Origin: Marinisporobacter sp.
GTDB lineage: Bacteria > Bacillota > Clostridia > Peptostreptococcales > Thermotaleaceae
Assembly: GCA_025210395.1 (NCBI GenBank)
Contig: JAOARV010000031.1
Location: 66,646 to 106,645, forward strand
Direction of reading: 5' to 3'
DNA length: 40,000 nt
Numbering within the stretch: position 1 is the stretch's first letter; each line of letters opens with the position of its first letter. This document shows positions 11,058 through 27,061 of the stretch, piece by piece. Both the position numbers and the translations under genes were made by a program. Below the pieces are notes generated by a model, which worked only from the letters and a program-made list of their open reading frames with translations, was not told the origin of the DNA and searched no databases.

Positions 11058-11060
11058 ATT

Positions 11061-11189
11061 CTATCCCTCCATCATAATATTTACAAGTGCCTGTTCTAAT
11101 GCTTCAATACGTTCTTTTTCTGTTGGTTTCTTTGATTGTTCTTTTTCTTTATCAATTTCTTTTTGCGTTTTCCATGGTATATTCGCCAT
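11061..11189 (-). CDS. Small phage protein (42 aa, charged/coiled)
   Basis: My translation: MANIPWKTQKEIDKEKEQSKKPTEKERIEALEQALVNIMMEG*. ATG 11189 is preceded by AGGAGGTG. Positionally equivalent to the 42-aa ORF at 14427..14555. Confidence 0.5.
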   Translation of the reverse strand: MANIPWKTQKEIDKEKEQSKKPTEKERIEALEQALVNIMMEG

Positions 11190-11191
11190 AG

Positions 11192-14223: not shown

Positions 14224-14249
14224 GAGTTTCACCTCCTTATAAAAGTGCA

Positions 14250-14278
14250 TAAAAATAACACCTGGTTTAAATGGTGTT
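14250..14278 (-). terminator. Intrinsic terminator between fibre cassette 1 and cassette 2
   Basis: On the - strand: AACACC, loop ATTTAAACCA, GGTGTT, then ATTTTTAT. The stem pairs 14257..14262 with 14273..14278. A short 6-bp stem. Confidence 0.5.
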
Positions 14279-14305
14279 TATAGTAAATTCAATGATATTC
14301 TTCCT

Positions 14306-14434
14306 TTATGATGCAACAATTTCCTCATACTGATCTTGTGTAATCCATCCTAACCTTAGTATTCTATCTAGTTGTTCTTTTGTCATCCAATTATTAGAGT
14401 AATATTCCCTTGCAATTTTGTACCAATCATGCAT
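14306..14434 (-). CDS. XkdX-family small phage protein (copy 1)
   Basis: My translation: MHDWYKIAREYYSNNWMTKEQLDRILRLGWITQDQYEEIVAS* (42 aa), a textbook XkdX pattern (W..y....t.eq....v..g.IT.eqYeeI). RBS AGAGGAGGAAAAG. Confidence 0.7.
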   Translation of the reverse strand: MHDWYKIAREYYSNNWMTKEQLDRILRLGWITQDQYEEIVAS

Positions 14435-14555
14435 TTTCTTTTCCTCCTCTTAATAAATCTAATTCAATCTGCAAGTCAATGACCTTCTGTGCTAATATTT
14501 CTATATCATTAGATGCTTTTTCAATTTCTACTGGACTTTTAACAACTACTTTCAA
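14427..14555 (-). CDS. Small phage protein (42 aa, coiled)
   Basis: TTG 14555 follows AGGGAGGGATAGAC. My translation: (M)KVVVKSPVEIEKASNDIEILAQKVIDLQIELDLLRGGKENA*. Overlaps the XkdX-1 start (ATGCATGA). Confidence 0.45.
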   Translation of the reverse strand: MKVVVKSPVEIEKASNDIEILAQKVIDLQIELDLLRGGKENA

Positions 14556-14557
14556 GT

Positions 14558-15013
14558 CTATCCCTCCCTTATCTCTATGACATTGATTTGTACTTCATCA
14601 AGAGTAATCGTATCTTTTGTAACAGAAAACCATGCAAGTCTGTCAATCATGTTGCTTGGTACTTTATCAAAATGTGATTCTAACTTTCCGATTTCTTTTG
14701 ATAATACGGTGATTCCATCTTCACAAAGCCACACTTCATAGTCATATCCCGTGGATATTTGGATTTCTGCTCCATCCAGTGGAATTTTAGTTCCTGTTGG
14801 TACTTGCTTCTTTATTTCTACTTCTTGCTGTGTTTCTTCATCCCACACTGTTTCTGTTACTGTGGTCATTTCTTCTGTATAATTTTTAAATAATTCCTTA
14901 TTTCCTGCTGTGTAATGAGTTCCGTCAATTTTTAGTTTCATGCCTTCTGTTGTTACTTTGAAGTCATGTAAAGCAGTATCAAGACTTCCTGTTACTACAT
15001 GTAGTGTTATCAT
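14558..15013 (-). CDS. Phage hypothetical protein downstream of fibre 1 (possible fibre accessory/chaperone)
   Basis: 151 aa, RBS AAGGAGGAATAATT. No motif recognised; function inferred only from position. Confidence 0.5.
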   Translation of the reverse strand: MITLHVVTGSLDTALHDFKVTTEGMKLKIDGTHYTAGNKELFKNYTEEMTTVTETVWDEETQQEVEIKKQVPTGTKIPLDGAEIQISTGYDYEVWLCEDGITVLSKEIGKLESHFDKVPSNMIDRLAWFSVTKDTITLDEVQINVIEIREG

Positions 15014-15025
15014 AATTATTCCTCC

Positions 15026-17545
15026 TTATTTTCCTATTGCCATCCATGTAATCCACACTTTTTTTAAAGAATCTTCTGTAGATACCTTTAAATATGGAGT
15101 GAAAGACGTTGTTGTTGGTTTTTCCATACCAATATAATCAATGTACTGACTCCAACCAGCACCAGTTATAAATATAGTTGGATTGTTTGAAAATGCTCTT
15201 TTAAATGTAATAGCACTAGAAAAACCTTGGGTGATAGGTGTTTCAAAAATACCGTACTCAATCCTCTCCCCATCACCTTTAATCATAGTATCTTTAATCT
15301 CTTTATTAATTCCCGCAATATCTCCTTCGACTTCGCCTACATGTTCTACTAACTTATTATGACTTTCACGTAAGTTTTCTTCATACTTGATTTGTGCATT
15401 TGCTAGTTGATTGTTATATTCTTCGTCTAGCATTTCATAGAGGACATAATATTCGGCTTGTGAATCATATTTTGTTGATAAATCTTCTTTTTTGATATAA
15501 AGTCTGCTTTTTCCGTAAGCAGATGCTATAGACCAAGTCCAATTATCATCATCTATAGTAAAATTTCCATCCTTTTTCTTATAAATAGATTTTATATGCT
15601 TTGTTTTATAATTAAGGTGATTGGGTAACACTATATTATTTATATACACATATTCATTAGCTCTTAATATTTCAGGTATTGCCTTTTCCCAAACTAAACC
15701 ACTTCCAACTTCAACGGTATTCATTCCCTCAACGGTAGCAAGCCCCTCACTACCAAAAGGAATATCTAAGTCTACTTCTTCTTCGTAAGGGTTTTCTAGT
15801 GCGTAGAAAAGTTCGTAATATTTTATAAAACCTTCAATGATAGCTGGGGATCGTTCAATAGGGACATTTCCTGAAAAATCATATCCGTTAGTTGAATATG
15901 AATTTAAATTTTCATCATTGAAATAACACCATGCTTTTGTACCGGATGTGTAAGGGGTATCATAATCATCTAAGTCCTTTTGATACATCTTCCATCCCAT
16001 CATAAATGCCTTAATTTCATCTTCCGTTGGTGTGTAAGATTCTCCCCATCCTGTGTCTGTGTTGGAAATCGTTAGATATAAAGCGCGATCCGCATCTGAA
16101 TACATCATATATTGATCTGAATTGTCGGTAGGACTAGAATGGGTTAAAATTTTACCATTATATTTTTTCAAGATATTTTTTTCCCATATAGAATTAATTC
16201 CTACATTCGCACTTTTTATTCTCTTATATTCTTTAACAGCAAAAATTAACTCCCAATCTAAATTTTCATCTAGTTTAACTCTTTTAACTTTTCTTTCCAC
16301 AATTCCCTTAGTCCCCTTAATCTCTCTCAAATTATCCCTATAAGAGGTGTTAGGAATTTCAGCTAAATGAGTAGGTAAAATTGCTAATGATTCTTTGTAA
16401 GGGGTATATGGTAGTGGAATTGTTCCTTCGTTTAATTGTATTTTAAAAGAGTAATTATTGAATGTAGTACCACTTGGAAACCATAATTGGAAAAACGCTA
16501 CTGGATTACTGTAATTAAATATCTGTGGTGGTGCTCCATCTGAAACCCTATAGTCTAAGTAGTGAGTGGTATCTCTTTTTCTTAAAACTATATTCACAAC
16601 GCCATTACCAACAACATCCAACAAGTTCATATTATATTGGGTATCCTTCTTGAGAACTTGGATATGTGAATCATACCAAGTACTTATTATACTTTGAGCA
16701 AATTTAAAGCCATCTGTTAGTTTCACATGGGTCGATGCTGTTGCCGTACCATGCAATACTACTTTATTTTCTTTTACAGTAATAGTAACACCATTTGCTG
16801 TAATACTACCTTGTGTTAGTTTAAGTAAATTTTCCCTAACCAACTTCACATAAGGGTGCTCAAGAGGTTGCGCTGATTCACAGTAAGGTACATCTTGGTT
16901 TGTCCAATCACCCTCAAGAATCATTACTTGATTAAACTTAATTGTTTTTCCATCTTCAACAATATCAGCATGGATATACAATCCTAATTCTATTGCATCT
17001 TTTTTCAAAAAAACTTTTTGTTTTCCACTTGACATATTAAAATAGCTGTAACCTTCTTTGTTTTTTAAATATCCTTTTAAGCCATAGGATGTATCATCAG
17101 AAACTATATTTGCAATAATAGTATAAGTTTTATTAGCTTTTATGTCTATTGGTAACTTCGATACTCTATGTATTGCATCATGCAAGACAGTTACACCTTC
17201 ACTACCACTTGATAGCATCCCTGACCAATTTCCATAATCATTACCATTATTAGCATAATTCACAACCATTTTACCTTCCATACTCACATCAACAGGACTT
17301 GCTACTTTTGAACTAAAGTGTTCTATCACAGAAGGATAATTTACTATCTTTACTGCCTTGTCTAGTTTATGAATTACTTCGTTATTTAGTTTTGTTATCC
17401 TATCTCTATCCGCTTCTATTCCTTGATCAATCTTATCCCAATTATCATTCAGCATTGTTTTTATATCAAAATATTCATTGCCATCTGTTTCAGGATTCTT
17501 TTTACATAGTTTTAAGTTTTTTGTTTCAGTTGCCAATTGGCTCAC
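15026..17545 (-). CDS. Long tail fibre / receptor-binding protein (copy 1)
   Basis: 839 aa. N-terminus NLKLCKKNPETDGNEYFDIKTMLNDNWDKIDQGI is the fibre adaptor motif. C-terminus ...ITFKRAFSNNPTIFITGAGW...VWITWMAIGK is a gp53-like knob. The real start is more likely TTG 17536, 8 nt after AGGAGG, than the track GTG 17545. Confidence 0.75.
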   Translation of the reverse strand: MSQLATETKNLKLCKKNPETDGNEYFDIKTMLNDNWDKIDQGIEADRDRITKLNNEVIHKLDKAVKIVNYPSVIEHFSSKVASPVDVSMEGKMVVNYANNGNDYGNWSGMLSSGSEGVTVLHDAIHRVSKLPIDIKANKTYTIIANIVSDDTSYGLKGYLKNKEGYSYFNMSSGKQKVFLKKDAIELGLYIHADIVEDGKTIKFNQVMILEGDWTNQDVPYCESAQPLEHPYVKLVRENLLKLTQGSITANGVTITVKENKVVLHGTATASTHVKLTDGFKFAQSIISTWYDSHIQVLKKDTQYNMNLLDVVGNGVVNIVLRKRDTTHYLDYRVSDGAPPQIFNYSNPVAFFQLWFPSGTTFNNYSFKIQLNEGTIPLPYTPYKESLAILPTHLAEIPNTSYRDNLREIKGTKGIVERKVKRVKLDENLDWELIFAVKEYKRIKSANVGINSIWEKNILKKYNGKILTHSSPTDNSDQYMMYSDADRALYLTISNTDTGWGESYTPTEDEIKAFMMGWKMYQKDLDDYDTPYTSGTKAWCYFNDENLNSYSTNGYDFSGNVPIERSPAIIEGFIKYYELFYALENPYEEEVDLDIPFGSEGLATVEGMNTVEVGSGLVWEKAIPEILRANEYVYINNIVLPNHLNYKTKHIKSIYKKKDGNFTIDDDNWTWSIASAYGKSRLYIKKEDLSTKYDSQAEYYVLYEMLDEEYNNQLANAQIKYEENLRESHNKLVEHVGEVEGDIAGINKEIKDTMIKGDGERIEYGIFETPITQGFSSAITFKRAFSNNPTIFITGAGWSQYIDYIGMEKPTTTSFTPYLKVSTEDSLKKVWITWMAIGK

Positions 17546-18104
17546 CTCCTAAAATAATTGGTACAAATGGTGAAAAATCTGTTAATCTTCTTTTTTGTAT
17601 TTCATTGATGGTTAGCTTTTGTACTTGATTGATGATCAGATACTTAAATTCATATTCTACAATTAAGTGTGCTGGCTTTATTTCTTCTATGGCATTTTTT
17701 AAATCTTCAAGGTTTGGGGGTGCACCTAGTGTATCCATGAATTTGATGATGAATTTATTATTTACAATACATTCCTCATTTTCAATAACTTCAATCTTTC
17801 CTTTTTCATAGCTTTGAGCAACATTTTCTAAGAGCTTTACAGTGACAGTTCCTATTCCTCTAAGCTTTGATTTGATGATACTTCTTCGAAATAGTGTATC
17901 TTTTTCATTACTGATGGGAATTCCTAGATCTTTTTCCCATCTTTCAAGATTCTTGTCTGCTGTATCTATAAAGAATTGATTGATATTTTCTTGTATCTTT
18001 TGCATCAATTGTTCTAGTTGCTTTTCCTCGGTGGTCATGAGATTTTTCATGACCTTGCTTTTTCTATAATACCCTGGAAGGTAGCTCATTAGCTTTTGTT
18101 CCAT
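17526..18104 (-). CDS. XkdU/YmfQ-like baseplate protein (DUF2313), copy 1
   Basis: 192 aa. SYLPGYY..., ...RRSIIKSKLRG.G..., ...APPNLEDLKNAIEEIKPAHL. RBS GAGGGGGGTG. Confidence 0.75.
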   Translation of the reverse strand: MEQKLMSYLPGYYRKSKVMKNLMTTEEKQLEQLMQKIQENINQFFIDTADKNLERWEKDLGIPISNEKDTLFRRSIIKSKLRGIGTVTVKLLENVAQSYEKGKIEVIENEECIVNNKFIIKFMDTLGAPPNLEDLKNAIEEIKPAHLIVEYEFKYLIINQVQKLTINEIQKRRLTDFSPFVPIILGGEPIGN

Positions 18105-19198
18105 ACAACACCCCCCTCTTTCCTTAGAACAGCTACTTGTTTTTCTCCAATATCATAGACTCCTTTTTGTAAATCTATAAGGTTTTCATCTACATATACT
18201 TGAAGGTTGGTATAATCTACTACCCCTTCTGCTTGAAGAATGGCACTTCCTATTTTTGCATAGCTTATATAGCCTTCAAGATAAGCTGTATCCTTTAAAT
18301 ATTTTTTGATGTTTTCTTCTATATTTGTAATCACTTGTTCTTGTTTACAATTTACTTTGTTGATTTTTAGCTTTACTTTTACATAGGTTTCTATTTCTTG
18401 AGCTGATTGTACCTTTACAATAGCTCCTATAGGTCTTTTTTCATTGATATACGTTTTTACTTCATTAATTAGGCTATCCTCTGCTGCTTTCATTCCCTCA
18501 GCAATAATCACAACCTCTACCGTACCATTTCCTTTTGTTACTGAACACACTCCACCTTGCTGGATTACCTTTTGGGCTGGAAATACTCTTGCATCTTCTA
18601 CTCTAGGAACTTCCTTTGCCCAGTTTCTATAATGATGTTTATTTCCTGATGTAGCAGGAGTACGAACCTTATCAAAATATCTTTGTCTTAAAGCTTCATC
18701 ACTTTCCCCATCATATCCATTGGTGATGGGTTCTAGATTCGTTACACTGCTAAAGCCACTTAGAGATGTTGGAAACTTTTTTATCTTACCTGCTCCTATA
18801 TTTCCAATGCTTCCTATTTCTTCGCATTCTACTAATACCTTTACCTGTCCACTTTCGCCAATAGTGACATTCTCTTTCACAATAAAATCTACAATATCAC
18901 TAGATACCCTCATCCCTACTCTTACTTCTGCTCCTTTTTCTCCATCAATATGTACAATAGTAGTTGCTTTTATAGGTGCTTTTCTTTTTAATCCTTGCTC
19001 AGCTACCTTTTTATCTAAAAAAATACCTGTAGCAGTTTCTACAAAGCCTTGATCTAATATTTTCTCTTGTTGTTCATAAGCTTTTACTAATTCAATCGCA
19101 ATTGGTTTTAGTACATCATAAAAAAAACTTCCTTCTGATTGATCATAGGTATCATCAATTCCTGATAACATATTCTTCATAATTTTGTCTATCATCAT
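18089..19198 (-). CDS. Baseplate J-like protein (XkdT/gp47 family), copy 1
   Basis: 369 aa. SEGSFFYDVLKP and TPATSGNKHHYRNWAKEV blocks. Overlaps the XkdS-like stop. Confidence 0.8.
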   Translation of the reverse strand: MMIDKIMKNMLSGIDDTYDQSEGSFFYDVLKPIAIELVKAYEQQEKILDQGFVETATGIFLDKKVAEQGLKRKAPIKATTIVHIDGEKGAEVRVGMRVSSDIVDFIVKENVTIGESGQVKVLVECEEIGSIGNIGAGKIKKFPTSLSGFSSVTNLEPITNGYDGESDEALRQRYFDKVRTPATSGNKHHYRNWAKEVPRVEDARVFPAQKVIQQGGVCSVTKGNGTVEVVIIAEGMKAAEDSLINEVKTYINEKRPIGAIVKVQSAQEIETYVKVKLKINKVNCKQEQVITNIEENIKKYLKDTAYLEGYISYAKIGSAILQAEGVVDYTNLQVYVDENLIDLQKGVYDIGEKQVAVLRKEGGVVWNKS

Positions 19199-19641
19199 AA
19201 GTTCACCTCCTGACTCAAGAAATCTCCACCTACTAAATCTACTTGAAAGGATACAATCAATTGGGGATTATCTTTTTTGATTTCCCATTGGGATATAGAC
19301 CCAATCATCGGATGCTTTGTTAAGCTTTCTGTGATTTCTCTTCTTAGCTCTGCTTCTACAAAAGCTTTTGGAAAATTGTTTCCTATGATTAAATCTTCAA
19401 TGATTATGCCATATTCATTGGAATCTTCTCTTTCGTAGATTTTGTATCTATATTTTTCTGTCCTCAAAATCTTTTCAATCCATCCCTTGATAGCAGCTTT
19501 TCCTGTTACTTCAACAACTCTTCCATCTTTTACATCAAAATCTCCTTTTTTGAAATCAAATAAAAAAGATTTACCTATCTTCGGTAAACCTGACTCCTTT
19601 TCTTTGGTCTTTATTTGTAATTGTGTTACCTGCGGAAACAT
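19195..19641 (-). CDS. XkdS-like baseplate wedge protein (DUF2634, gp25/W-like)
   Basis: 148 aa. Position and size between the XkdR-like and baseplate J genes. GKSFLFDF...GD motif typical of DUF2634. Confidence 0.6.
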   Translation of the reverse strand: MFPQVTQLQIKTKEKESGLPKIGKSFLFDFKKGDFDVKDGRVVEVTGKAAIKGWIEKILRTEKYRYKIYEREDSNEYGIIIEDLIIGNNFPKAFVEAELRREITESLTKHPMIGSISQWEIKKDNPQLIVSFQVDLVGGDFLSQEVNL

Positions 19642-20057
19642 TATAATCTCACCGCCTTATCTATTAGAAAATAGGTTTGTTCATCTGTAGACGGAACCAA
19701 TATAACTATATCCCCTTTTTTAAGGGTATCTGTATATTTCATAGTCCCTGTAATAGTCGTTTGTGCACCAACACTTCCACTAACTACCTTATATGTTGTA
19801 GGTGGTGGACTTGTTTGAAGTGTAATAGAACCACCCTCTCCGTTGGTTTGTATATTTCCTTTTACTTCTATTTCTCTTTGATAATCCTTTAATACATGTG
19901 CTGCTATGACTAAGTGTTCTTTTGTTAGGATGATCTTGTCTCCAAGAGATACTTGAATATTAGGGGGAGGGCTAAGTACCATTCCTGTCTGTGGTCCTAG
20001 ATAAGGTTGATTATCCCTTTCTTTAAACAATTTAGCCAGTTCACTAATGCCATCCAT
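19641..20057 (-). CDS. XkdR-like protein (DUF2577; spike/central baseplate component)
   Basis: 138 aa. ...GMVLSPPPNIQVSLGDKIILTKEHLVIA... matches the DUF2577 pattern. Located between the XkdQ-like and XkdS-like genes. Confidence 0.6.
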   Translation of the reverse strand: MDGISELAKLFKERDNQPYLGPQTGMVLSPPPNIQVSLGDKIILTKEHLVIAAHVLKDYQREIEVKGNIQTNGEGGSITLQTSPPPTTYKVVSGSVGAQTTITGTMKYTDTLKKGDIVILVPSTDEQTYFLIDKAVRL

Positions 20058-21025
20058 TATATCACCCCTAATCCTAGCTGCATTTTGTGAATGCCATTTT
20101 TCACTGTATGATTTACATCCTTGATCAGGTATTTTCCAGTCATTCCTGTTATAGGCTCTTTGATTTCTATGGTTCTTCCTGCTCGTACCTTATCATCTCC
20201 CATGATTTCAACGCTGTTCTCTTCAAATATTTTCCCAAAGTCTTCTAATATTTTGTCTGCAATGTTCCTTGCTTTTGCTTTATCTTTTTTGTCTATGGTT
20301 GTAACTTCTTGAAGTAGCCCATATTGTTTGATTAATTCATCTTTTTTTCTGTTTTCGATCACATGATTATTAAATACTACTTGAACACTATTTTTCATCT
20401 CTTCTATAGATCGTTTTCTACTAGGACTAGAAAGAGCCTTTGTTATATCATAGGGTTGTATATTTTCTGCAAGCTGGAAGGTTCCTTTGATGATTAACTC
20501 CTCTTGTTTTTCTATACATAGCTTCCCCTGCCTCATTTCCATCCTATATTTCTTTCCTGTATGCTTCTTTGCAATATCTAAAATGTCCTTGATAATTTCA
20601 CTAATAGCTTTCTCCCTATAGATTTTGTTGATCACCGTATTAATAGGTGCAATATTTCCAATAGGTACATTAAAATCATTGAGCATAGTTTCAATGGCTT
20701 TTTTTCCTGTAACTTTATTAAACTGATAAACTGCCTTACTTTTATTGAGATAAAATGCATAATCAAAGCAGCTATATTCGATTCTACCTCTTCCATTTCT
20801 TTGCTCTGAAACAACAATGGCTCGAAGAATTTCATCTTTATTATTGAGAATGATTAAGCTTCCTAAATCTACTGGATTCATTGGAAAATATCGATCATCA
20901 TTAAAAGCAATATCAAAGGTTAGTTGTTGTCCTAACTCATTGATATTGCTTCTCCAGCTGATACTTCCTACTAAAGGTGTAATATCTGTTTGTAAGTTAT
21001 CTTTAATATTAAGTAGCTGATGCAT
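20057..21025 (-). CDS. XkdQ/YqbQ-like baseplate hub protein (gpD/gp27-like)
   Basis: 322 aa. N-terminus ...DITPLVGSISWRSNINELGQQLTFDIAFND... resembles XkdQ/YqbQ. Canonical position after the XkdP-like gene. Confidence 0.65.
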   Translation of the reverse strand: MHQLLNIKDNLQTDITPLVGSISWRSNINELGQQLTFDIAFNDDRYFPMNPVDLGSLIILNNKDEILRAIVVSEQRNGRGRIEYSCFDYAFYLNKSKAVYQFNKVTGKKAIETMLNDFNVPIGNIAPINTVINKIYREKAISEIIKDILDIAKKHTGKKYRMEMRQGKLCIEKQEELIIKGTFQLAENIQPYDITKALSSPSRKRSIEEMKNSVQVVFNNHVIENRKKDELIKQYGLLQEVTTIDKKDKAKARNIADKILEDFGKIFEENSVEIMGDDKVRAGRTIEIKEPITGMTGKYLIKDVNHTVKNGIHKMQLGLGVI

Positions 21026-21026
21026 A

Positions 21027-21467
21027 TTACACCTCCTTTTGTTCTAGTTGTATGAATTTGAATTCGCTCAAGGTAAGGGTATAATATATATCCCCACTAC
21101 CATCCTGCTGCCCATATTCAAAGCTTTCTATCGTACAAGCCATATTCCCTAAATGATCAGGCATATCATTAATAATCATTCGAATGGGTACTCTTCTATT
21201 TTTCCATTTTTCAAGCATGTCTACATAGTCCCATGCTTTGTACTGTTGATTTTCTTCTAAACCTCTTAAAAAAGGATACTTATGGTTTGGGAAAAATGAT
21301 TGTATGCTAATGCTCCTTAAATTTTTCATGCCTATCAGCTTGATTTCTCCCTGACTTATGGTATCAAAGGTTTCATTTTTCATTCCTGATTGTATTTTAA
21401 ATTCCTTTGGCAAAACAGGAAGTGTAAAAAATTGCTCTCTATTGTTTACTGAAAGTAAAATATCCAT
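21027..21467 (-). CDS. XkdP-like tail protein, N-terminal domain only (no LysM)
   Basis: 146 aa. LPVLPKEFKIQSG...IESFEYGQQDGSGDIYYTLTLSEFKF resembles the N-domain of XkdP-type proteins, which usually carry a C-terminal LysM. None is seen here. Confidence 0.5.
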   Translation of the reverse strand: MDILLSVNNREQFFTLPVLPKEFKIQSGMKNETFDTISQGEIKLIGMKNLRSISIQSFFPNHKYPFLRGLEENQQYKAWDYVDMLEKWKNRRVPIRMIINDMPDHLGNMACTIESFEYGQQDGSGDIYYTLTLSEFKFIQLEQKEV

Positions 21468-21480
21468 GAATGCACCTCCT

Positions 21481-23280
21481 TTATGCGTATGTAGGTTGGT
21501 TGGACATGGCTTCTTTTAGTCTTGGGATCAACTTATTAGCAATTTCTTCACTAGACATATTGGCACCTGTAATATTGAATGTAAGATTATTTCTTATATG
21601 CTGACGAGTTCTACGATCTTCCGATTTTATCCCCATATTTTTATTGCTTTGTCCATGTACTGGATGATTTCTCGTTGGGTTTTTAACATAATTATTTCTA
21701 TATAGATTCATTATATTTGATCCTACTCGTTTTCCATATTTTGTGATTCCTAAATTTTTAGTATTAGCTTTATACTCCAGTTTCATTTCATGCTGCGTAT
21801 TAATCTTATTTTGTGATTTAGGAATGAAATGATTCCTACTAATACTATATTTTCCATTTTGTAACTTTTCTTTCATTAAATCTACTTGCTTAGTTGCACC
21901 TGTAAGATTGAATGTAAGATTATTTCTTATATGCTGACGAGTTCTACGATCTTCTGATTTTATCCCCATATTTTTATTGCTTTGTCCATGTACTAGATGA
22001 TTTCTCATTGGGTTTTTAACATAATTATTTCTATATAGATTCATTATATTTGACCCTAATTGTTTTCCATATTTTGTTATTCCTAAATCTTTAGTATTAG
22101 CTGTATACTCCAGTTTTATTTCATGCTGTGTATTAATCTTGTTTTGTGATTCAGGAATAAAATGATTCCTACTACTACTATATTTTCCATTTTGTAACTT
22201 TTCTTTCATTAAAGCTACTTGCTTAGATGGAGTATATTTATCTTTGATCTTGTTCCAAGTATTATTAATAACCCTTACGCTGTTTGTCTCTAAATTTTTT
22301 AAATTATTTTCTTTTATTTGTGCTTTAAACTTTTGATCTTTTGTTCTTTCATTCTCACGTATAGAAATAGGCACGGTTCTATTTCCTAGATCCTTGATTT
22401 GTGGATAATTTTGCATATATGAATCTAGATTAATTGGTATATTTAAATCTTTTGGAGGAATAAAATACTTATTAATTTCCGCTCTCATAGGATCATCTAA
22501 TATATTTTTATACACCATCGTAAGAGGAGTAGTCACTATAGCAGATGTTCCCAAGCTAACTAAATCTACAGCTGCAAGAAATTGTATACATTCATCTTCT
22601 TTTTTCTCCCTCAGTGTTTTTATAGCAAATAATATAGTAAGAGGAGTAAATATATTTTTTGAAATTGTATTTTGTAATGCTTTAAATCTAGATAAATTTT
22701 TTATAGATCCTTCAACCCATCTTTTTATTGGTCCTGATTGTTTTATTAAATCTTTATTATTTCCCATTTTCCCCCACAATTCAATCATCTTTTGTGAGGC
22801 TATCCCTGCTTTACTAGCCATATCAATTGTCTTATTTTTTAAAAGTAATTGGTTTTTTTTAGAAATTGATATATTTTTTACAAATTTTGAAAATTCCCTC
22901 CCTATCTTTGTATCCAAAAACCAAGTACCATAAGATATCCCCGAACCATAAGAACCATCACCATTATCAATTTCTCCATTTCTATTACTATCTACAGGCG
23001 TATCTACAAATTCGCCAAATTGTTCCATAAATTCGTCAAATGAATTGATTATAAAAGGTTTTATATAATTATCTATATTTTTATTTAACCACTTTCCTAT
23101 AGGATTTGTCTGTCCAATATTTCTTCTAGGATCAGTTTTTTTACAAAGTTCATTAGATTTTTTCATGATTTCTATATATGGATTTTTAAATTGATTCTTT
23201 CCATCATTCTCATCTTTTTTTATTAACTTCTTATCTATTTCTTTAGACTTCATTGTTTCTTTCTCCATTTTATTACCCAT
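21481..23280 (-). CDS. Tail tape measure protein
   Basis: 599 aa in the canonical slot after the chaperone pair. Central hydrophobic segments (TPLTILFAI, AAVDLVSLGTSAIVTTPL). C-terminal 2 x 111-aa tandem repeat. RBS AAGGTGGTGAG. Confidence 0.7.
   Translation of the reverse strand: MGNKMEKETMKSKEIDKKLIKKDENDGKNQFKNPYIEIMKKSNELCKKTDPRRNIGQTNPIGKWLNKNIDNYIKPFIINSFDEFMEQFGEFVDTPVDSNRNGEIDNGDGSYGSGISYGTWFLDTKIGREFSKFVKNISISKKNQLLLKNKTIDMASKAGIASQKMIELWGKMGNNKDLIKQSGPIKRWVEGSIKNLSRFKALQNTISKNIFTPLTILFAIKTLREKKEDECIQFLAAVDLVSLGTSAIVTTPLTMVYKNILDDPMRAEINKYFIPPKDLNIPINLDSYMQNYPQIKDLGNRTVPISIRENERTKDQKFKAQIKENNLKNLETNSVRVINNTWNKIKDKYTPSKQVALMKEKLQNGKYSSSRNHFIPESQNKINTQHEIKLEYTANTKDLGITKYGKQLGSNIMNLYRNNYVKNPMRNHLVHGQSNKNMGIKSEDRRTRQHIRNNLTFNLTGATKQVDLMKEKLQNGKYSISRNHFIPKSQNKINTQHEMKLEYKANTKNLGITKYGKRVGSNIMNLYRNNYVKNPTRNHPVHGQSNKNMGIKSEDRRTRQHIRNNLTFNITGANMSSEEIANKLIPRLKEAMSNQPTYA
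21559..22224 (-). repeat. Tandem direct repeat, 2 x 333 bp, in frame inside the tape measure gene
   Basis: Unit 1 is 21892..22224 (aa 353-463) and unit 2 is 21559..21891 (aa 464-574). 99 of 111 aa are identical by my count. The DNA is visibly near-identical at a 333-nt offset (for example GCACCTGTAA at 21563 and 21896). Confidence 0.9.
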
Positions 23281-23338
23281 CCACTCACCACCTTCTCTTA
23301 AAAAATAAAACCATAAAAAGCACCCCTATGGGTACTTC

Positions 23339-23485
23339 CTATGATTCATACTGTTCTTTCATCATTTTCTCTAACTCTTCCATTTCCTTCTCATAAAAAG
23401 CCATGAGGAGAATCATCTCTCCCCTTGGCATGTTGTATAGCACAGATGGTCGGATGCCTTTTGTTTTCCAGTAGTAGTAAAGCAT
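23339..23485 (-). CDS. Small ORF in the -1 frame after the chaperone gene (48 aa from its ATG; probable frameshift extension, gpT-like)
   Basis: My translation: MLYYYWKTKGIRPSVLYNMPRGEMILLMAFYEKEMEELEKMMKEQYES*. The frame stays open upstream through the last codons of the XkdN-like gene. Confidence 0.55.
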   Translation of the reverse strand: MLYYYWKTKGIRPSVLYNMPRGEMILLMAFYEKEMEELEKMMKEQYES

Positions 23486-23508
23486 CTGTGTAAAACCATC
23501 TGTGTTGA

Positions 23509-23904
23509 TTAGTTTTTTACTTCTTCTACTGCTCCACCATCAAATCCACTTAGTTCTCCAATGATGTTGTATAATGTTATGATTTCTCCAGGAAGAAGAA
23601 GCTTTGTCACTAAATCCTTTGGTGTATAAACATGAAATTTATCCATCAGCTCTTTGCTTTTTAGACTTGGGCTTTTTACTCCTTCTATAACGGTCATTCT
23701 TTGAAGCTCTCCTATGTTGATGCTTTCTTGTTCTTCATCCATAGCTAGCTCTTGGATTTCTTCCATTTTATCAGGGGTTAGTGCTTCTACTCGAAAGATT
23801 ACCTTTTCTCCTATTGCCTCTGATAGTCTTTTCATTTCAACTTCTTTACTTGGCTTTCTTAGTTTGCTTTCATCTAGCTGTAATAACAAATCTAATGTAT
23901 TCAT
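23509..23904 (-). CDS. XkdN-like tail assembly chaperone
   Basis: 131 aa, acidic, between the tube and tape measure genes. LDESKLRKPSKEVEMKRLSE...FRVEALT resembles the XkdN/TAC family. RBS AAGGAGGAAG. Confidence 0.7.
   Translation of the reverse strand: MNTLDLLLQLDESKLRKPSKEVEMKRLSEAIGEKVIFRVEALTPDKMEEIQELAMDEEQESINIGELQRMTVIEGVKSPSLKSKELMDKFHVYTPKDLVTKLLLPGEIITLYNIIGELSGFDGGAVEEVKN
23512..23518 (-). promoter_or_regulatory. Putative -1 programmed ribosomal frameshift heptamer A_AAA_AAC
   Basis: - strand reads GT A AAA AAC TAA. The X_XXY_YYZ heptamer occupies the last two sense codons of the chaperone ORF. The -1 frame continues for about 58 codons to stop 23339. Confidence 0.6.
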
Positions 23905-23915
23905 AAGCTTCCTCC

Positions 23916-24362
23916 TTATTCTGGATTGATTACATCTGTAAAGTCATAGCCTGTAAATGTAAATGGACATTCTACCTTTCCTAATGCTTTTGCTTCAAAA
24001 TTCATTAATGTTAAATCATCAAAGCTAACCCCTGTTAATGCTACTCTTTCTGATTGAGCATCTACTGTATCTGGATCAGCAAGCTTGGATACGATTGTAA
24101 ATCTAATATCTTTTCCCTTCTTGATCATATCGCCTAGCTTGATTGCCATTCTTGAGTTTACTTTGTGCATCTTTACAGTTCCTTTTCCTTCCCAGCCTGT
24201 AACCTTTGTATCTTTAGCAAGGACTCCACACATATTTACATCTTCTTTTTTTAATGTAACCTTTGCTTCAAGTCCTGTCAATTCACTTACCTTATCTCCA
24301 TCTAACCAAATTTCTCCCCACGTTCCGTTAATCACTCTATTTCCAGGTATTTTGTTTGCCAT
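23916..24362 (-). CDS. Tail tube protein (XkdM-like)
   Basis: 148 aa directly after the sheath gene. INGTWGEIWLDGDKV...GKGTVKMHKV pattern of XkdM-type tube proteins. Confidence 0.8.
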   Translation of the reverse strand: MANKIPGNRVINGTWGEIWLDGDKVSELTGLEAKVTLKKEDVNMCGVLAKDTKVTGWEGKGTVKMHKVNSRMAIKLGDMIKKGKDIRFTIVSKLADPDTVDAQSERVALTGVSFDDLTLMNFEAKALGKVECPFTFTGYDFTDVINPE

Positions 24363-24374
24363 ATTTATTCCCTC

Positions 24375-25445
24375 CTACATGAATATTTCCATTGTTAAGT
24401 CTTCCATCGCATCTAAGAATTTCACATGTGCTTTGATAAAGACTTCACTTCCTGTATTGTATTCCTTGATTTCTTGTTCTTTTAATGAATCTACATCTAC
24501 ACCTTTTTTCATTAGGTATATCTTTTGGGTATCCATATCGATCATTGCCTTATTTTCATAAGCATTGTCTAATACATCAATTCTTTCTAACTCTTGAAAA
24601 TATGCATTGATGGCTGCTAAGAATAGTACTTTATTATCATATGAATTGATAATTTTTCCAACATAAGAACCATCAAAGGTGTCATGAATATCATCTCTCA
24701 TCAAGTCTACTGCATCTACAATCTTGATCTTTTTAAATTCCTCTCCCTTTGTAGCAGTAGTTGTTGTAAGAGAGTTTACCCCTCTACCGATCTTGATTTT
24801 TACGCCATCGTTGATTAAGATTAATTTTCCATTGTCAATATCTACATCTGGATTATCTGATTCTGTAATGGCTTCTACTTCATTAAGTTCATAGTAAGTA
24901 GAACTTCTTGTAAATGGTAATCCAGCAAGAATTCCTGCGATTCTACAAGTATATTGACTCGCACTATAAGGAACAACCTTATCCTTGTCTACTCTCACCT
25001 GGATGCCTTCTGTAGCAAAATTAATGATTCCTTCATGATCTGCCACTATATTTGGTAATACTGCTTTAAATGTCTTTTTGTTGTTGTCTCTTTGTCCTTT
25101 GACCCATGAAACAATATTTTGTACATCCTTTTGTTCAATTCCTGGAATAGCAAGATAGTTCCACTTTTTGCTTTTTAATCGCTTAAGGGCTTCTGAATAA
25201 TCTTCATCTGCATTGATTCTTTCAACGATAATTTTGCTAGGTATTCCCATAAAGGTTTTTTCAATATAGCCTTTATTTTCAGAGGTCCAATCCTCTGCCT
25301 TTAATTCATCTATTGCCTTATAGATCATTGTGTCAAAATCCTTTGTACCATCCTTTAAAATCAATGCTACAATTCCTCTAGCACTTCTCTTGATAGCTGT
25401 CGTTCCTTTTGTTTTAAATTCTATAGAAATTTTTGGTAATCCCAT
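24375..25445 (-). CDS. Contractile tail sheath protein (XkdK-like)
   Basis: 356 aa. Size, position and N-terminus (MGLPKISIEFKTKGTTAIKRSARGIVALILKD) are typical of small Firmicute sheath proteins. Confidence 0.85.
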   Translation of the reverse strand: MGLPKISIEFKTKGTTAIKRSARGIVALILKDGTKDFDTMIYKAIDELKAEDWTSENKGYIEKTFMGIPSKIIVERINADEDYSEALKRLKSKKWNYLAIPGIEQKDVQNIVSWVKGQRDNNKKTFKAVLPNIVADHEGIINFATEGIQVRVDKDKVVPYSASQYTCRIAGILAGLPFTRSSTYYELNEVEAITESDNPDVDIDNGKLILINDGVKIKIGRGVNSLTTTTATKGEEFKKIKIVDAVDLMRDDIHDTFDGSYVGKIINSYDNKVLFLAAINAYFQELERIDVLDNAYENKAMIDMDTQKIYLMKKGVDVDSLKEQEIKEYNTGSEVFIKAHVKFLDAMEDLTMEIFM

Positions 25446-25888
25446 TATTTTTCCTCCTTCATACTTAGTTGTTGCATCTTTTCATAATTTTGATAATCAT
25501 ATAGCTTCCTTTCATCCACAGTATCCATAAATTGTATTTCAAAAGAAAATGCTAATACCTTATTGACTATACTTACTTTGCTTTCTTGAATGGTAAATTT
25601 TCTATTCTTTACAATCAATAATGGATGAAAAATTTCTTGTAGTTTTTCTAAAGCTTTTAGATTCTCTTCCATGGTTTCACTTTTTGAAAAATATCGTATA
25701 TCTATTTTCATAAGCTTATTTTGATGATATTTATCCTCCATGGTAGTTGAAATCGGTAAAGCTTGTATGAAAAATGCAGGTTGATCCAAATCTTTATCCT
25801 GCATACTTTCACAGAAATGATATTTAGGAAAGCTTTCCTTGATCTTTTCTATGACAGCCTTTTGAATTTCAATGAATGTCATCCTCAT
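25445..25888 (-). CDS. Tail terminator / tail completion protein (XkdJ position)
   Basis: 147 aa immediately upstream of the sheath gene. FIEIQKAVIEKIKESFPKY...PAFFIQALPIS resembles phage tail terminator family proteins. Confidence 0.55.
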   Translation of the reverse strand: MRMTFIEIQKAVIEKIKESFPKYHFCESMQDKDLDQPAFFIQALPISTTMEDKYHQNKLMKIDIRYFSKSETMEENLKALEKLQEIFHPLLIVKNRKFTIQESKVSIVNKVLAFSFEIQFMDTVDERKLYDYQNYEKMQQLSMKEEK

Positions 25889-26187
25889 CTCTCCTTTGAC
25901 ATCCGTCTTTGCTTCATCTTTCTTTGAATAATCTCCCCTGATAAATGATGAATATCTAAAAGATCCATCATATACTCCTCATCTAATGCCAATCCTGTTT
26001 GAGCTTTTTTTAACGCTTCTTTCATTGTTTCTATCTGGTTCTTATAAGTATTTCTCTCTTTGATCACCTTATTGAGCCGGGTTCTTGGAACAAAGCTTTG
26101 ATCATTTACTATAAGTTTTTTGTTTCCTAGCTTTTCTTTTAGTTGGTCATATAACTTTTGACCTAGTATTTCTTTTAAGTGTTTCAT
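25885..26187 (-). CDS. Short protein with a phage scaffold (GP20-like) N-terminal motif; first gene of the structural operon
   Basis: 100 aa. LKEILGQKLYDQLKEKLGNKKLIVNDQSFVPRTRLNKVIKERNTYKNQIE resembles the N-terminus of GP20-type scaffold/minor structural proteins, which are usually about twice as long. From memory, not searched. Confidence 0.35.
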   Translation of the reverse strand: MKHLKEILGQKLYDQLKEKLGNKKLIVNDQSFVPRTRLNKVIKERNTYKNQIETMKEALKKAQTGLALDEEYMMDLLDIHHLSGEIIQRKMKQRRMSKER

Positions 26188-26266
26188 AGTATTCTCTCCT
26201 CATTCCATTACGTTTTTTACGTGCAACGCCACGAATGGATGGTTTAGAAACTTGCTAGCAGTTTTT

Positions 26267-26328
26267 CTTATTTTAAAGTATAATATAGAAATTTTAATAA
26301 TATCGGTTTAGTTTCGGCAATTTTTCGG
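26267..26328 (-). promoter_or_regulatory. Conserved 62-nt promoter-like module, copy B (upstream of the structural operon; overlaps the 3' end of the regulator gene)
   Basis: - strand: CCGAAAAATTGCCGAAACTAAACCGATATTATTAAAATTTCTATATTATACTTTAAAATAAG. Matches copy A at 47 of 62 positions without gaps. Ends 79 nt before ATG 26187. Confidence 0.55.
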
Positions 26329-26841
26329 AATATTTACTTCTGTAAATTGTAAAATCATACTGTTTTTCAATATTCTTATCATTTTCGTAATGGCTTTATT
26401 TTTTATTGCTCTACATTGTCTTTCCTCTATATTGATTTGAAAAGTAATATATCTCCAAATTTTCTTTTCAATATATTTCATTTGAATAATTTGCTTTTCA
26501 ATATCTGTCAAGCTTTCTATTGCGTTGTAGATTCTTTGTAAAAATCTCTCTACATGTCTTTTTTCAAATTCAAGCAAATCGATCTTGTGCTGGATTTCAA
26601 AATCCTTTACAGCTTGTATTTCTGTTTTCGAAAAAAAGCTATTGGTCTTAATAAAATTTTCATAATCTATTCCTTTTAAACTTAAATACTTCATATCTTT
26701 TAAATCTGCAATTTGTAATTCTATTTCTTTTATTTTTGCTTCATATTGCTTTAAGTTCTTTAATATGTTTTCAACACTTTTCATATTTAAACTTTTTTCA
26801 TTTTTACTTTGTATATTTTGTTCTAATGCTTGTGCATACAT
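26308..26841 (-). CDS. Phage late-gene transcriptional regulator, sigma-70 region-4 / ArpU-RinA-like
   Basis: 177 aa. C-terminus LTDIEKQIIQMKYIEKKIWRYITFQINIEERQCRAIKNKAITKMIRIL looks like a region-4 type HTH. First gene of the cluster. Confidence 0.5.
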   Translation of the reverse strand: MYAQALEQNIQSKNEKSLNMKSVENILKNLKQYEAKIKEIELQIADLKDMKYLSLKGIDYENFIKTNSFFSKTEIQAVKDFEIQHKIDLLEFEKRHVERFLQRIYNAIESLTDIEKQIIQMKYIEKKIWRYITFQINIEERQCRAIKNKAITKMIRILKNSMILQFTEVNIPKNCRN

Positions 26842-26934
26842 TACTCATCACCACCAAAATTTTTTTGTTTATAAAGAATTCAAATATAAATAAATCCATG
26901 TCATTTATCAATCATTTCGTTCCATCAAACTTTT

Positions 26935-26996
26935 GTTATTTTAGAGTATACTATACATTTTTTCATAAAATTGGCATATATTCGGCACTTTTCCGG
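26935..26996 (-). promoter_or_regulatory. Conserved 62-nt promoter-like module, copy A (upstream of the regulator gene)
   Basis: - strand: CCGGAAAAGTGCCGAATATATGCCAATTTTATGAAAAAATGTATAGTATACTCTAAAATAAC. Contains direct CCGrAA repeats about 11 nt apart and TATACT / TAAAAT -10-like hexamers. Ends 93 nt before ATG 26841. Confidence 0.55.
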
Positions 26997-27030
26997 AGAT
27001 TTCATAACAATCATAAAGTGCCTATAGAAA

Positions 27031-27061
27031 ATTATACCATATTTTTTCGAACAAGTGTTCT
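27031..27061 (-). promoter_or_regulatory. Extended -10 promoter (TGgTATAAT) with an overlapping LexA/Cheo box, facing the regulator gene
   Basis: + strand CGAACAAGTGTTCT (27048..27061) matches the Cheo box CGAACRNRYGTTYC at 13 of 14 positions. On the - strand it sits over the -35 region of TGGTATAAT (27039..27031). Confidence 0.6.

What the first reader, a model, noticed from the sequence alone, without database searches (positions are those of the whole stretch)
26267..26996. A 62-nt promoter-like module repeated upstream of the regulator gene and of the structural operon (putative positive-feedback circuit)
Copy A (26935..26996) and copy B (26267..26328) align without gaps at 47 of 62 positions by my count. 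That is far above the expectation for AT-rich DNA.

Read on the - strand, both copies share these elements:
- They start with two direct CCGrAA repeats about one helical turn apart (CCGGAAAAGTGCCGAA in A, CCGAAAAATTGCCGAA in B).
- They end with TATAkTATACTyTAAAATAA.
- They lie 93 nt (A) and 79 nt (B) upstream of the next start codon.
- Neither has a good sigma-A -35 element.

Copy B is embedded in the last codons of the regulator gene itself. The simplest model is that the regulator recognises this module, as activator or as alternative sigma. It would thereby amplify its own SOS-triggered expression and switch on the structural operon. An RNA-level role, such as an antitermination target, is an alternative, because copy A would also be transcribed from the SOS promoter.
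Basis: seen in the sequence. Interest (0 to 1): 0.6.

Follow-up and report, generated by a model that had tools for sequence, protein, structure and literature searches.

The report
Self-amplifying switch promoter of a tailocin
The repeated 62-base module is real and conserved across several bacterial genera, and it is most likely the docking site and promoter for the adjacent phage-type activator, placed before the activator's own gene and before the phage-tail weapon genes, so that a DNA-damage signal would be locked in by positive feedback; this is a modest variation on a known phage design.

Summary
Observation confirmed. Copy A (26996..26935, - strand) and copy B (26328..26267, - strand) match at 47/62 without gaps, against 39-41 for the best pair in shuffled 40-kb windows. 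They are the only two copies in the 3.4-Mb genome.

The module has three (not two) GCCGrA-type boxes spaced 11 nt apart. A spacer of fixed length and variable sequence follows, then TATACT-n-TAAAAT. I found 28 instances in 14 or more related loci, with no indel inside the module. Strong copies occur only in genomes that encode a close homologue of the adjacent 177-aa regulator.

The regulator is a basic, distant RinA/ArpU (Ltr superfamily) relative. It has a C-terminal domain like sigma region 4 and no sigma region 2.

Copy B reproduces the published Ltr design: direct repeats at the 3' end of the activator gene, next to a sigma-A-type -10 element. Copy A, 34 nt downstream of a LexA-boxed promoter, would give positive autoregulation. 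That layout is not reported in the Ltr papers I read, but it is known for the TcdR/UviA sigma factors.

No RNA structure supports an RNA-level role for the module.

Verdict: a new variant of a known kind, of moderate interest. A separate conserved 26-nt leader downstream of copy B remains unexplained.

The parts
27031..27061 (-). SOS promoter of the regulator gene. LexA (Cheo) box AGAACACTTGTTCG at 27061-27048, extended -10 element TGGTATAAT at 27039-27031.
   Evidence: Read directly. The box and TGGTATAAT are conserved in five orthologous loci, mean pairwise identity 0.82. Only 12 GAAC-N4-GTTC sites occur in the whole genome.
26935..26996 (-). Module copy A. Boxes CCGGAA (26996-26991), GCCGAA (26986-26981) and GCCAAT (26975-26970), then a spacer, TATACT (26950-26945) and TAAAAT (26943-26938). 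It lies 34 nt downstream of the SOS -10 element and 93 nt upstream of the regulator start. Proposed autoregulatory promoter.
   Evidence: It is an island of conservation: 0.75 pairwise identity against 0.57-0.59 in the flanking non-coding DNA.
26308..26841 (-). Regulator gene, 177 aa, pI 9.3. Distant RinA/ArpU (Ltr) relative with an N-terminal helical hairpin and a C-terminal domain like sigma region 4. The tail (residues 162-177) is predicted disordered.
   Evidence: phrog_36 E 8e-20. TIGR01636 RinA E 2e-5, below the curated cut-off. PDB profile hits to sigma region 4. AlphaFold2 pLDDT 76.6. Foldseek match to ECF sigma region 4. pI.
26267..26328 (-). Module copy B. Boxes CCGAAA (26328-26323), GCCGAA (26318-26313) and ACCGAT (26307-26302), then TATACT (26282-26277) and TAAAAT (26275-26270). 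It overlaps the last 7 codons and the stop codon of the regulator gene and lies 79 nt upstream of the first structural gene. Proposed late-operon promoter.
   Evidence: The position is conserved in L002-L005 and L018. The design is the same as published Ltr binding regions.
26209..26234 (-). Conserved 26-nt leader TCGTGGCGTTGCACGTAAAAAACGTA, downstream of copy B only. Function unknown; candidate RNA-level or second-factor site.
   Evidence: Single copy in the genome. Found in 11 of 401 genomes of the order, with no match to the reversed control pattern. Only a 4-bp invariant hairpin and no covariation. Followed by a strong predicted terminator hairpin in two related loci.
10455..26187 (-). Head-less contractile-tail (tailocin) structural operon that copy B would drive. 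It holds a scaffold-like stub, tail terminator, sheath, tube, XkdN-like chaperone, tape measure, and baseplate and fibre genes. It ends at a terminator-like hairpin at 10479-10455.
   Evidence: Pfam and PHROG hits for the first seven genes. ORF list. Terminator scan. No further module copy in the window.

Best explanation
The module is a DNA cis-regulatory unit: an activator-dependent promoter.

**Proposed mechanism**
- Its phased GCCGrA boxes (three here, two to four in relatives, one per 11 bp and so on one face of the helix) are docking sites for several copies of the adjacent regulator. The regulator is a small, basic, RinA/ArpU-like late activator that binds DNA through a domain like sigma region 4.
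- The last box sits at a fixed 22 nt upstream of a sigma-A-type -10 element (TATACT). This is where a -35 element would be, and none exists. Bound regulator would therefore recruit or stabilise the host sigma-A RNA polymerase.

**Proposed circuit**
1. DNA damage removes LexA from the box over the extended -10 promoter at 27061-27031.
2. A first pulse of regulator is made.
3. The regulator then fires copy A, upstream of its own gene (positive feedback), and copy B, which overlaps its own stop codon and drives the 16-kb tail operon.

**Status of each step**
- Shown: the repeat, its fixed geometry, its conservation, its co-occurrence with the regulator, and the nature of the regulator's domains.
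- Inferred: binding, the direction of the effect (activation), and the transcription start sites.
For: 1. The repeat is far above chance and unique in the genome.
2. Sixteen instances from nine loci align with zero indels. The invariant columns are GCC of box 2, CC of box 3, TATA.T and TA...T, while the spacer sequence varies. With later loci there are 28 instances, each with 2-4 phased boxes.
3. A and B are old paralogues held similar by constraint, not by recent duplication. Of 62 positions, A-A orthologues share 46.7, B-B 50.2, A-B within one genome 40-47, and A-B across genomes 43.5.
4. Copy A is a conservation island in non-coding DNA.
5. A sequence model of the module gives strong hits (E <= 4e-11) only in the 7 of 61 related genomes that encode a close regulator homologue, and always beside that gene. 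All 12 genomes of the order with a homologue of at least 50% identity carry modules.
6. Independent validation: searching only with the downstream leader found five new sites. Each has a full module 5-11 nt upstream, and none was used to build the matrix.
7. The regulator has sub-threshold but consistent RinA, ArpU and sigma-70 region-4 hits in all 9 family members and in most of 50 wider homologues. Its fold matches ECF sigma region 4 at 1.0-1.3 A over about 60 residues. Its phiSM101 homologue is annotated as RinA family and sits upstream of terS.
8. Published Ltr activators need 2-4 direct repeats in a block of about 59 nt just distal to, or at the 3' end of, their own gene, upstream of a sigma-A TATA box (PMC3753634; PMC13123087). 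With TATACT as the -10 element, the boxes here span about -59 to -33.
9. In copy B the residues encoded between the boxes change non-synonymously among orthologues while the boxes stay the same. The encoded tail is predicted disordered. The constraint therefore acts on the DNA.
Against:
- The model hits of point 5 include the training sequences. What carries information is the lack of other strong hits.
- The genomes are related to one another, so the co-occurrence counts are not independent.
- Two adjacent -10-like hexamers (TATACT and TAAAAT, 7 nt apart) are both conserved, so the real -10 element and the start site are ambiguous.
- No terminator separates the regulator gene from the tail operon. 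Read-through from upstream could therefore contribute, and copy B need not be the only driver.
- The regulator scores below the curated cut-offs for RinA and ArpU.
- Copy A lies in the transcribed leader of the SOS promoter, so a bound protein there could also block transcription.
Confidence: 0.75

Rival explanations
1. The regulator is a true alternative sigma factor. Box 3 (GCCnAT) would be its -35 element and TATACT its -10 element, and core RNA polymerase plus regulator would transcribe both copies without sigma-A.
For: - Database sources name some homologues 'sigma factor' or 'specialized sigma subunit'.
- There are hits to the sigma70-ECF, SigB/F/G and PBSX 'positive control sigma-like factor' models.
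- Auto-activated sigma genes sitting just upstream of their target promoters are the rule for TcdR/UviA.
Against: - Only region 4 aligns. No region 2 appears in the PDB profile search or in the predicted fold, where full-length superpositions on ECF sigmas have rmsd 13-24 A.
- A sigma factor needs one -35 element, yet 2-4 phased copies of the box are conserved.
- The gap from box 3 to TATACT would be a spacer of 19-20 bp, at or beyond the usual limit.
- The -10 element is sigma-A-like.
- Per PMC3753634, Ltr relatives act through the direct repeats, which are taken to be their binding sites.
Confidence: 0.1
2. Copy A is mainly a brake. Regulator bound at +28 to +60 of the SOS transcript would block elongation from the LexA-controlled promoter (negative autoregulation). 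Only copy B would be an activated promoter.
For: Copy A lies inside the transcribed leader of the SOS promoter, 34 nt after its -10 element. This spacing is conserved in five loci.
Against: - Copy A keeps the whole promoter part (TATACT-n-TAAAAT) at exactly the same distance from the boxes as copy B. That block is the most conserved part of the module, at 0.84 identity. A pure roadblock would need only the boxes.
- Geosporobacter, Anaerosolibacter and the G065 locus carry two complete tandem modules upstream of the regulator.
Confidence: 0.08
3. The module works at the RNA level, for example as an antitermination or RNA-binding target. Both copies are transcribed from the SOS promoter.
For: - Both copies would be present on the SOS transcript.
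- Related late leaders contain strong terminator hairpins, which suggests that some antitermination step exists in this system.
Against: - RNAalifold finds no consensus pair in 16 instances.
- There is no Rfam match.
- The conservation pattern (phased short boxes, a fixed-length variable spacer, a -10 hexamer) is that of a promoter.
- Remote copies stand in intergenic DNA with no upstream gene to transcribe them from.
Confidence: 0.04
4. The module is a real operator and promoter, but it is bound by a factor other than the adjacent regulator: a host protein or another product of the element.
For: Binding was not tested. The co-occurrence could reflect shared ancestry of the whole element.
Against: - Modules track the regulator even where the tail genes are truncated or rearranged (L020, L021).
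- Modules track the regulator where the late operons lie on other contigs.
- Homologous activators use exactly this kind of repeat.
Confidence: 0.05

Closest known systems
Ltr superfamily late activators of Gram-positive phages (RinA, ArpU, LtrA-C; Phi13 Ltr) and TP901-1 Alt, with their repeat-containing late promoters
   Same: - A small basic protein with a DNA-binding domain like sigma region 4.
- The gene lies directly upstream of the late morphogenesis operon.
- There are 2-4 short direct repeats in a block of about 59 nt at or just after the 3' end of the activator gene. These are required for activation of a promoter with a sigma-A-type -10 element (PMC3753634, PMC13123087).
- With TATACT as the -10 element, the repeats span about -59 to -33. 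Alt's span -76 to -32.
   Different: - The regulator scores below the curated RinA and ArpU cut-offs. It is about 40 residues longer than the roughly 130-140 aa typical of its homologues and of Ltr proteins, having a longer N-terminal region and a disordered C-terminal tail.
- A second complete module sits upstream of the activator gene itself. Autoregulation is not mentioned in either Ltr paper I searched.
- The activator gene is under a LexA box directly, not under a CI/Cro early operon.
- The element is a head-less tailocin, not a phage.
- No terminator lies between the activator gene and the late promoter.
Group-5 sigma factors of clostridia (TcdR, UviA, BotR, TetR) and their promoters
   Same: - The regulator gene lies immediately upstream of its target promoter and is co-oriented with it.
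- The regulator activates its own gene.
- Two tandem regulator-dependent promoters lie upstream of tcdR, like the tandem modules in the Geosporobacter, Anaerosolibacter and G065 loci.
- The family includes UviA, which transcribes a C. perfringens bacteriocin gene (PMC4885068).
   Different: - Those proteins are full sigma factors with regions 2 and 4. This protein lacks region 2.
- Their promoters are -35/-10 pairs and not arrays of phased repeats.
PBSX Xpf (positive control sigma-like factor) and diffocin-type R-tailocin loci
   Same: - PBSX-like tail genes (XkdK/M/N-type sheath, tube and chaperone).
- A sigma-like positive factor at the head of the late operon. Four wider homologues hit the NCBIfam model PRK06930, 'positive control sigma-like factor'.
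- Diffocins are SOS-inducible (PMC6088184).
   Different: - I did not check the PBSX literature for a duplicated operator module or for the late-promoter sequence.
- The PBSX Xre repressor (from my own knowledge) has no counterpart here. LexA appears to act directly.
Lambda CII at pRE (from established knowledge)
   Same: An activator binds direct repeats one helical turn apart that straddle the -35 position of a promoter lacking a good -35 element.
   Different: The protein family is unrelated, there are two repeats only, and there is no autoregulatory copy.

Membership tests
Ltr superfamily (RinA/ArpU-type late transcriptional regulators) | Small basic protein (pI > 8, about 130 aa) with a conserved C-terminal DNA-binding domain related to sigma-70 region 4 | tested here: met
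   - pI 9.3 and 177 aa, so longer than typical.
- Region-4 hits in the PDB profile search.
- Foldseek TMt about 0.8 and rmsd 1.0-1.3 A to ECF sigma region 4.
Ltr superfamily (RinA/ArpU-type late transcriptional regulators) | Scores above the curated family HMM cut-off (TIGR01636 RinA or TIGR01637 ArpU) | tested here: not met
   - TIGR01636: 24.7 bits against a cut-off of 31.9.
- TIGR01637: 21.7 bits against a cut-off of 43.1.
- All 9 close relatives and 31-33 of 50 wider homologues hit these models at E <= 1e-3.
- This makes it a distant relative, not a curated member.
Ltr superfamily (RinA/ArpU-type late transcriptional regulators) | Gene located directly upstream of the late (morphogenesis) operon | tested here: met
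   The regulator gene ends 120 nt before the first gene of the tail operon. The phiSM101 homologue lies upstream of terS.
Ltr superfamily (RinA/ArpU-type late transcriptional regulators) | Several short direct repeats at or just distal to the 3' end of the activator gene, upstream of a sigma-A-type -10 element | tested here: met
   Copy B has three boxes at 11-nt phase that overlap the last 7 codons and the stop codon, with TATACT 22 nt after box 3.
Ltr superfamily (RinA/ArpU-type late transcriptional regulators) | Regulator binds the repeats and is required for late-promoter activity | not testable with these tools
   There is only co-occurrence evidence. It needs EMSA and reporter assays.
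Sigma-70 family alternative sigma factors (ECF or group 5, TcdR/UviA) | Region 2 (binds core polymerase and recognises the -10 element) together with region 4 | tested here: not met
   - Profile hits cover region 4 only.
- The predicted N-terminal part is a two-helix hairpin.
- Full-length superpositions on ECF sigmas have rmsd 13-24 A.
LexA-repressed (SOS) promoter | Cheo-type box CGAACN4GTTCG overlapping the core promoter elements | tested here: met
   AGAACACTTGTTCG lies 8 nt upstream of TGGTATAAT. It is conserved in five orthologous loci and also present in L018 and L020. LexA binding was not tested.

The most novel reading that the evidence does not exclude
Late expression may need two separable signals. 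The first is the repeat-box promoter, read by an oligomer of a protein that carries only a sigma region-4-like domain and stands in for the missing -35 contact. The second is the invariant 26-nt leader (TCGTGGCGTTGCACGTAAAAAACGTA), acting as a new RNA-level signal for antitermination, processing or translation control. The leader accompanies every 'late' module but never the autoregulatory one. In two related loci it precedes a strong terminator. In one genome it sits upstream of a full-length phage scaffold gene.
Probability: 0.15. Interest if true: 0.6.

Novelty: new variant of a known kind. Interest (0 to 1): 0.4.

Why it matters
Producing a tailocin kills the producing cell, so the decision to produce should be all-or-none. 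A LexA-gated activator that re-fires its own promoter is a simple way to turn a graded SOS signal into a commitment.

The work yields a precise operator model that can be tested: GCCGrA boxes every 11 bp, with the last one 22 bp before TATACT. It applies to an uncharacterised branch of the RinA/ArpU activators, found in at least eight genera of the order Peptostreptococcales. These include the cultured genera Marinisporobacter, Anaerophilus, Inediibacterium, Geosporobacter, Anaerosolibacter and Wukongibacter.

It also extends the known Ltr design with an autoregulatory copy. The module could serve as a compact inducible promoter and activator pair for clostridial genetics. It is not a new principle of regulation.

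Tried and rejected
- **Rfam.** Nothing at gathering score in the whole window. Only two chance-level hits in 25800-27300.
- **RNA structure of the module.** No consensus pairs.
- **First structure prediction.** AlphaFold2 with a 9-sequence alignment was poor (pLDDT 69, HTH not resolved), and I did not use it. A second run with 14 sequences was usable.
- **PDB sequence search.** The 9-sequence profile found nothing. A 50-sequence profile was needed.
- **The search for related loci on genome contigs.** Only 3 loci were returned. The genome search was more productive.
- **Upstream/downstream repeat around distant homologues.** I looked for the same arrangement around regulator homologues of 24-36% identity and found nothing above shuffles. 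The test has low power, since even true pairs in L003-L005 barely exceeded the null. Generality beyond this clade stays open.
- **Natural control rejected.** Genome G011 has the leader but neither regulator nor module. I dropped it as a control because there the leader lies inside a prophage head operon (Mu-F-like gene, then scaffold, then coat), not at an operon start.
- **Pseudogene idea withdrawn.** I first took the stop inside the G109 regulator match as a sign of a pseudogene. It is more likely the natural end of a shorter protein that the search read through.
- **LlgA and monocin.** I recalled that Listeria LlgA controls the monocin. The paper says it does not.
- **Larger duplication or recombination remnant.** Rejected: the flanks do not align, and both copies are separately conserved across genera.
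Full report
**1. The observation**

Read on the - strand, copy A (26996..26935) and copy B (26328..26267) match at 47 of 62 positions without gaps, and at 48 of 62 in a register shifted by 4 nt. The 40 nt on either side do not align. In 12 Markov-1 shuffles of the whole 40-kb window, the best same-strand 62-mer pair scored 39-41. The real window has only two better pairs, both inside coding repeats.

The two-box pattern CCGRA-N6-CCGAA and the three-box pattern occur only at these two places in the 3.4-Mb genome (31.7% G+C). One correction is needed: there are three phased boxes, not two.

| Element | Copy A | Copy B |
|---|---|---|
| Box 1 | CCGGAA 26996-26991 | CCGAAA 26328-26323 |
| Box 2 | GCCGAA 26986-26981 | GCCGAA 26318-26313 |
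| Box 3 | GCCAAT 26975-26970 | ACCGAT 26307-26302 |
| First -10-like hexamer | TATACT 26950-26945 | TATACT 26282-26277 |
| Second -10-like hexamer | TAAAAT 26943-26938 | TAAAAT 26275-26270 |

**2. Context**

Downstream on the - strand lies a head-less PBSX/diffocin-like contractile-tail operon. It runs from 26187 to a terminator-like hairpin at 10479-10455. It encodes a scaffold-like stub, tail terminator, sheath, tube, XkdN-type chaperone, tape measure, and baseplate and fibre genes.

Upstream of copy A is a LexA box, AGAACACTTGTTCG (27061-27048). It lies 8 nt before an extended -10 element, TGGTATAAT (27039-27031). Only 12 GAAC-N4-GTTC sites exist in the genome. No terminator-like hairpin lies between the regulator gene and the tail operon.

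**3. The regulator**

- The 177-aa product of 26841..26308 is basic, with pI 9.3.
- It hits PHROG 36 and PHROG 248, annotated as transcriptional regulator and activator.
- It scores below the curated cut-offs against the NCBIfam models for RinA (TIGR01636, E 2e-5, nearly full length), ArpU (TIGR01637) and sigma70-ECF (region 4 only). All nine close relatives do the same.
- A search of 1.8 billion representative proteins found 286 homologues, most of them about 140 aa. Of 50 that I aligned, 33 hit RinA, 31 hit ArpU and 41 hit the sigma70-ECF model. Four hit the PBSX 'positive control sigma-like factor' model.
- A profile of these sequences matches only region 4 of FliA, SigF, SigK, RpoH and SigA in the PDB.
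- AlphaFold2 with a 14-sequence alignment gave pLDDT 76.6 and pTM 0.62, with the core mostly above 88. It predicts a long two-helix hairpin (residues 20-56 and 72-109) followed by a three-helix domain (113-159). Residues 162-177 are disordered.
- Foldseek places the C-terminal 60 or so residues on ECF sigma region 4. Examples are 3hug and 2h27 (sigma-E region 4 bound to -35 DNA), at TMt about 0.8 and rmsd 1.0-1.3 A. Full-length fits to ECF sigmas are poor, at 13-24 A.
- A 33%-identical homologue in Clostridium phage phiSM101 is annotated by TIGR01636 and lies at the end of the early region upstream of terS.

I conclude that the protein is a distant relative of the RinA/ArpU (Ltr) late activators and lacks sigma region 2.

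**4. Comparative evidence for the module**

*Conserved position.* Close regulator homologues (50-83% identity) occur in 7 of 61 related genomes and in 12 of 401 genomes of the order. In four other genera or species, both copies are present at the same positions. These are a congener, Marinisporobacter balticus, Anaerophilus nitritogenes and Inediibacterium massiliense. Copy A lies about 34 nt after a LexA-boxed TGGTATAAT, and copy B overlaps the regulator's last codons.

*Other arrangements.* Geosporobacter, Anaerosolibacter and G065 carry two complete tandem modules upstream of a shorter regulator. Other loci have one.

*Fixed geometry.* Sixteen instances from nine loci align with no indel. 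The invariant columns are GCC of box 2, CC of box 3, TATA.T and TA...T. The roughly 14-nt stretch between box 3 and the -10 block varies in sequence but not in length.

*Old paralogues.* Copies A and B are ancient. Of 62 positions, A-A orthologues share 46.7 on average and B-B 50.2. A-B pairs share 40-47 within a genome and 43.5 between genomes. The similarity is therefore kept by shared constraint and not by recent duplication or gene conversion.

*Conservation island.* Copy A shows 0.75 pairwise identity, and 0.84 in its -10 block, against 0.57-0.59 in the flanking non-coding DNA. This is comparable to the LexA/-10 block at 0.82.

*Constraint on the DNA.* In copy B, the codons between the boxes change non-synonymously among orthologues (PKNCRN, PKKCRN, PQECRN, TKKCRN) while the boxes stay fixed.

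**5. Co-occurrence and an independent check**

A sequence-only covariance model of the module was run on 61 whole genomes. It gave strong hits (E <= 4e-11) only in the seven genomes with a close regulator homologue. All hits lie beside that gene, one or two per locus. The other matches were weak (E >= 5e-4). The trained sites match by construction, so the informative result is that no other strong sites appeared.

A second check used different information. I searched the order only with the 26-nt leader that follows copy B. Matches appeared in 11 of 401 genomes, and none matched the reversed control pattern. Five new leader sites lie on other contigs or 10-30 kb from the regulator. Each has a full module 5-11 nt upstream, with three to four GCCGrA boxes at 11-nt phase and the same box-to-TATACT distance. 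In total there are 28 instances in 14 or more loci. All 12 genomes with a regulator homologue of at least 50% identity carry modules.

**6. Mechanism**

Published work on Ltr activators describes this design. RinA, LtrC and ArpU need two to four 7-nt direct repeats in a block of about 59 nt immediately distal to their own gene (PMC3753634). Phi13 Ltr uses four repeats at the 3' end of its coding sequence (-107 to -42), upstream of a sigma-A TATA box. TP901-1 Alt binds four repeats at -76 to -32 (PMC13123087).

With TATACT as the -10 element, the boxes here lie at about -59 to -33. Box 3 then occupies the place of the missing -35 element. The most likely mechanism is therefore as follows. Several regulator molecules sit on one face of the DNA, probably joined through the N-terminal helical hairpin. 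They activate sigma-A RNA polymerase at a promoter that has a -10 element but no -35 element.

Copy B drives the tail operon. Copy A re-fires the regulator gene after LexA release has produced the first pulse. This positive feedback suits a lethal, all-or-none output. Neither Ltr paper I searched mentions autoregulation. It is standard for the TcdR/UviA sigma factors, including two tandem promoters upstream of tcdR (PMC4885068).

Binding, activation and the start sites are inferred.

**7. Rival explanations**

- *True alternative sigma factor.* Disfavoured because region 2 is absent, the boxes are multiple, and the spacer would be 19-20 bp.
- *Copy A as a roadblock only.* Disfavoured because copy A keeps the complete and most conserved -10 block at the same distance as copy B, and because tandem complete modules exist elsewhere.
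- *RNA-level role for the module.* Unsupported: no consensus structure and no Rfam hit.
- *Non-regulatory duplication.* Excluded by sections 1 and 4.
- *Another binding factor.* Cannot be excluded without biochemistry.

**8. An unexplained extra**

Downstream of copy B, but never of copy A, lies an almost invariant 26-nt leader, TCGTGGCGTTGCACGTAAAAAACGTA (26234..26209).

- Its distance from the module varies from 5 to about 33 nt among loci.
- It forms at most a 4-bp invariant hairpin and shows no covariation.
- In the MAG191 and Wukongibacter loci, a strong predicted terminator hairpin follows it before the first gene.
- In genome G011 a variant lies inside a prophage head operon, just upstream of a full-length scaffold gene.

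It may be an RNA-level signal for antitermination, processing or translation control, or a site for a second factor. It is not part of the promoter geometry.

**9. Verdict**

The element is a new variant of a known kind: an Ltr-type activator and repeat promoter, here duplicated for autoregulation and wired directly to LexA in a tailocin. Interest is moderate.

Noticed in passing
window 26209-26234 (- strand); also L018, L026, L048, L050-L054, L059: An almost invariant 26-nt leader, TCGTGGCGTTGCACGTAAAAAACGTA, follows every 'late' module but not the autoregulatory copy. It occurs in 11 of 401 genomes of the order. A strong terminator hairpin follows it in two loci. In G011 it lies upstream of a full-length phage scaffold gene. 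Its function is unknown.
   Followed up: partly
window 23308-23347 (- strand): An 18-pair terminator-like hairpin followed by a T-run lies in the 58-nt gap between the chaperone frameshift extension and the tape measure gene. It may be an internal attenuator that sets the ratio of sheath and tube to distal tail proteins.
   Followed up: no
window 21574 and 21907: A 61/62 direct repeat at a 333-nt offset inside the tape measure gene.
   Followed up: no
window 13617 and 18598: A 53/62 direct repeat between the 364-aa ORF (13156-14250) and the 369-aa ORF (18089-19198). This is consistent with the duplicated baseplate and fibre cassette noted earlier in the scan.
   Followed up: no
L020 (Geosporobacter) 8232-10779; L021 (Anaerosolibacter) 8520-10532: In these loci two tandem modules precede a shorter regulator (163 aa in L020). 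Baseplate-J and Mu gp48-like genes follow directly, with no sheath or tube genes between. The tail cluster there is truncated or rearranged but keeps the regulator and its modules.
   Followed up: partly
window 27156-27377 (+ strand): The divergent neighbour is a 73-aa GntR-type HTH fragment ahead of an ABC-transporter operon. It looks like a broken ytrA-like repressor gene and appears unrelated to the tailocin switch.
   Followed up: no
L050 1256 and 1428; L053 673 and 1428; L054 668 and 1428: Genomes of the Wukongibacter-like family carry extra module copies 170-760 nt apart, at loci remote from the regulator gene. The regulon there appears to have three or more transcription units, compared with two here.
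   Followed up: partly
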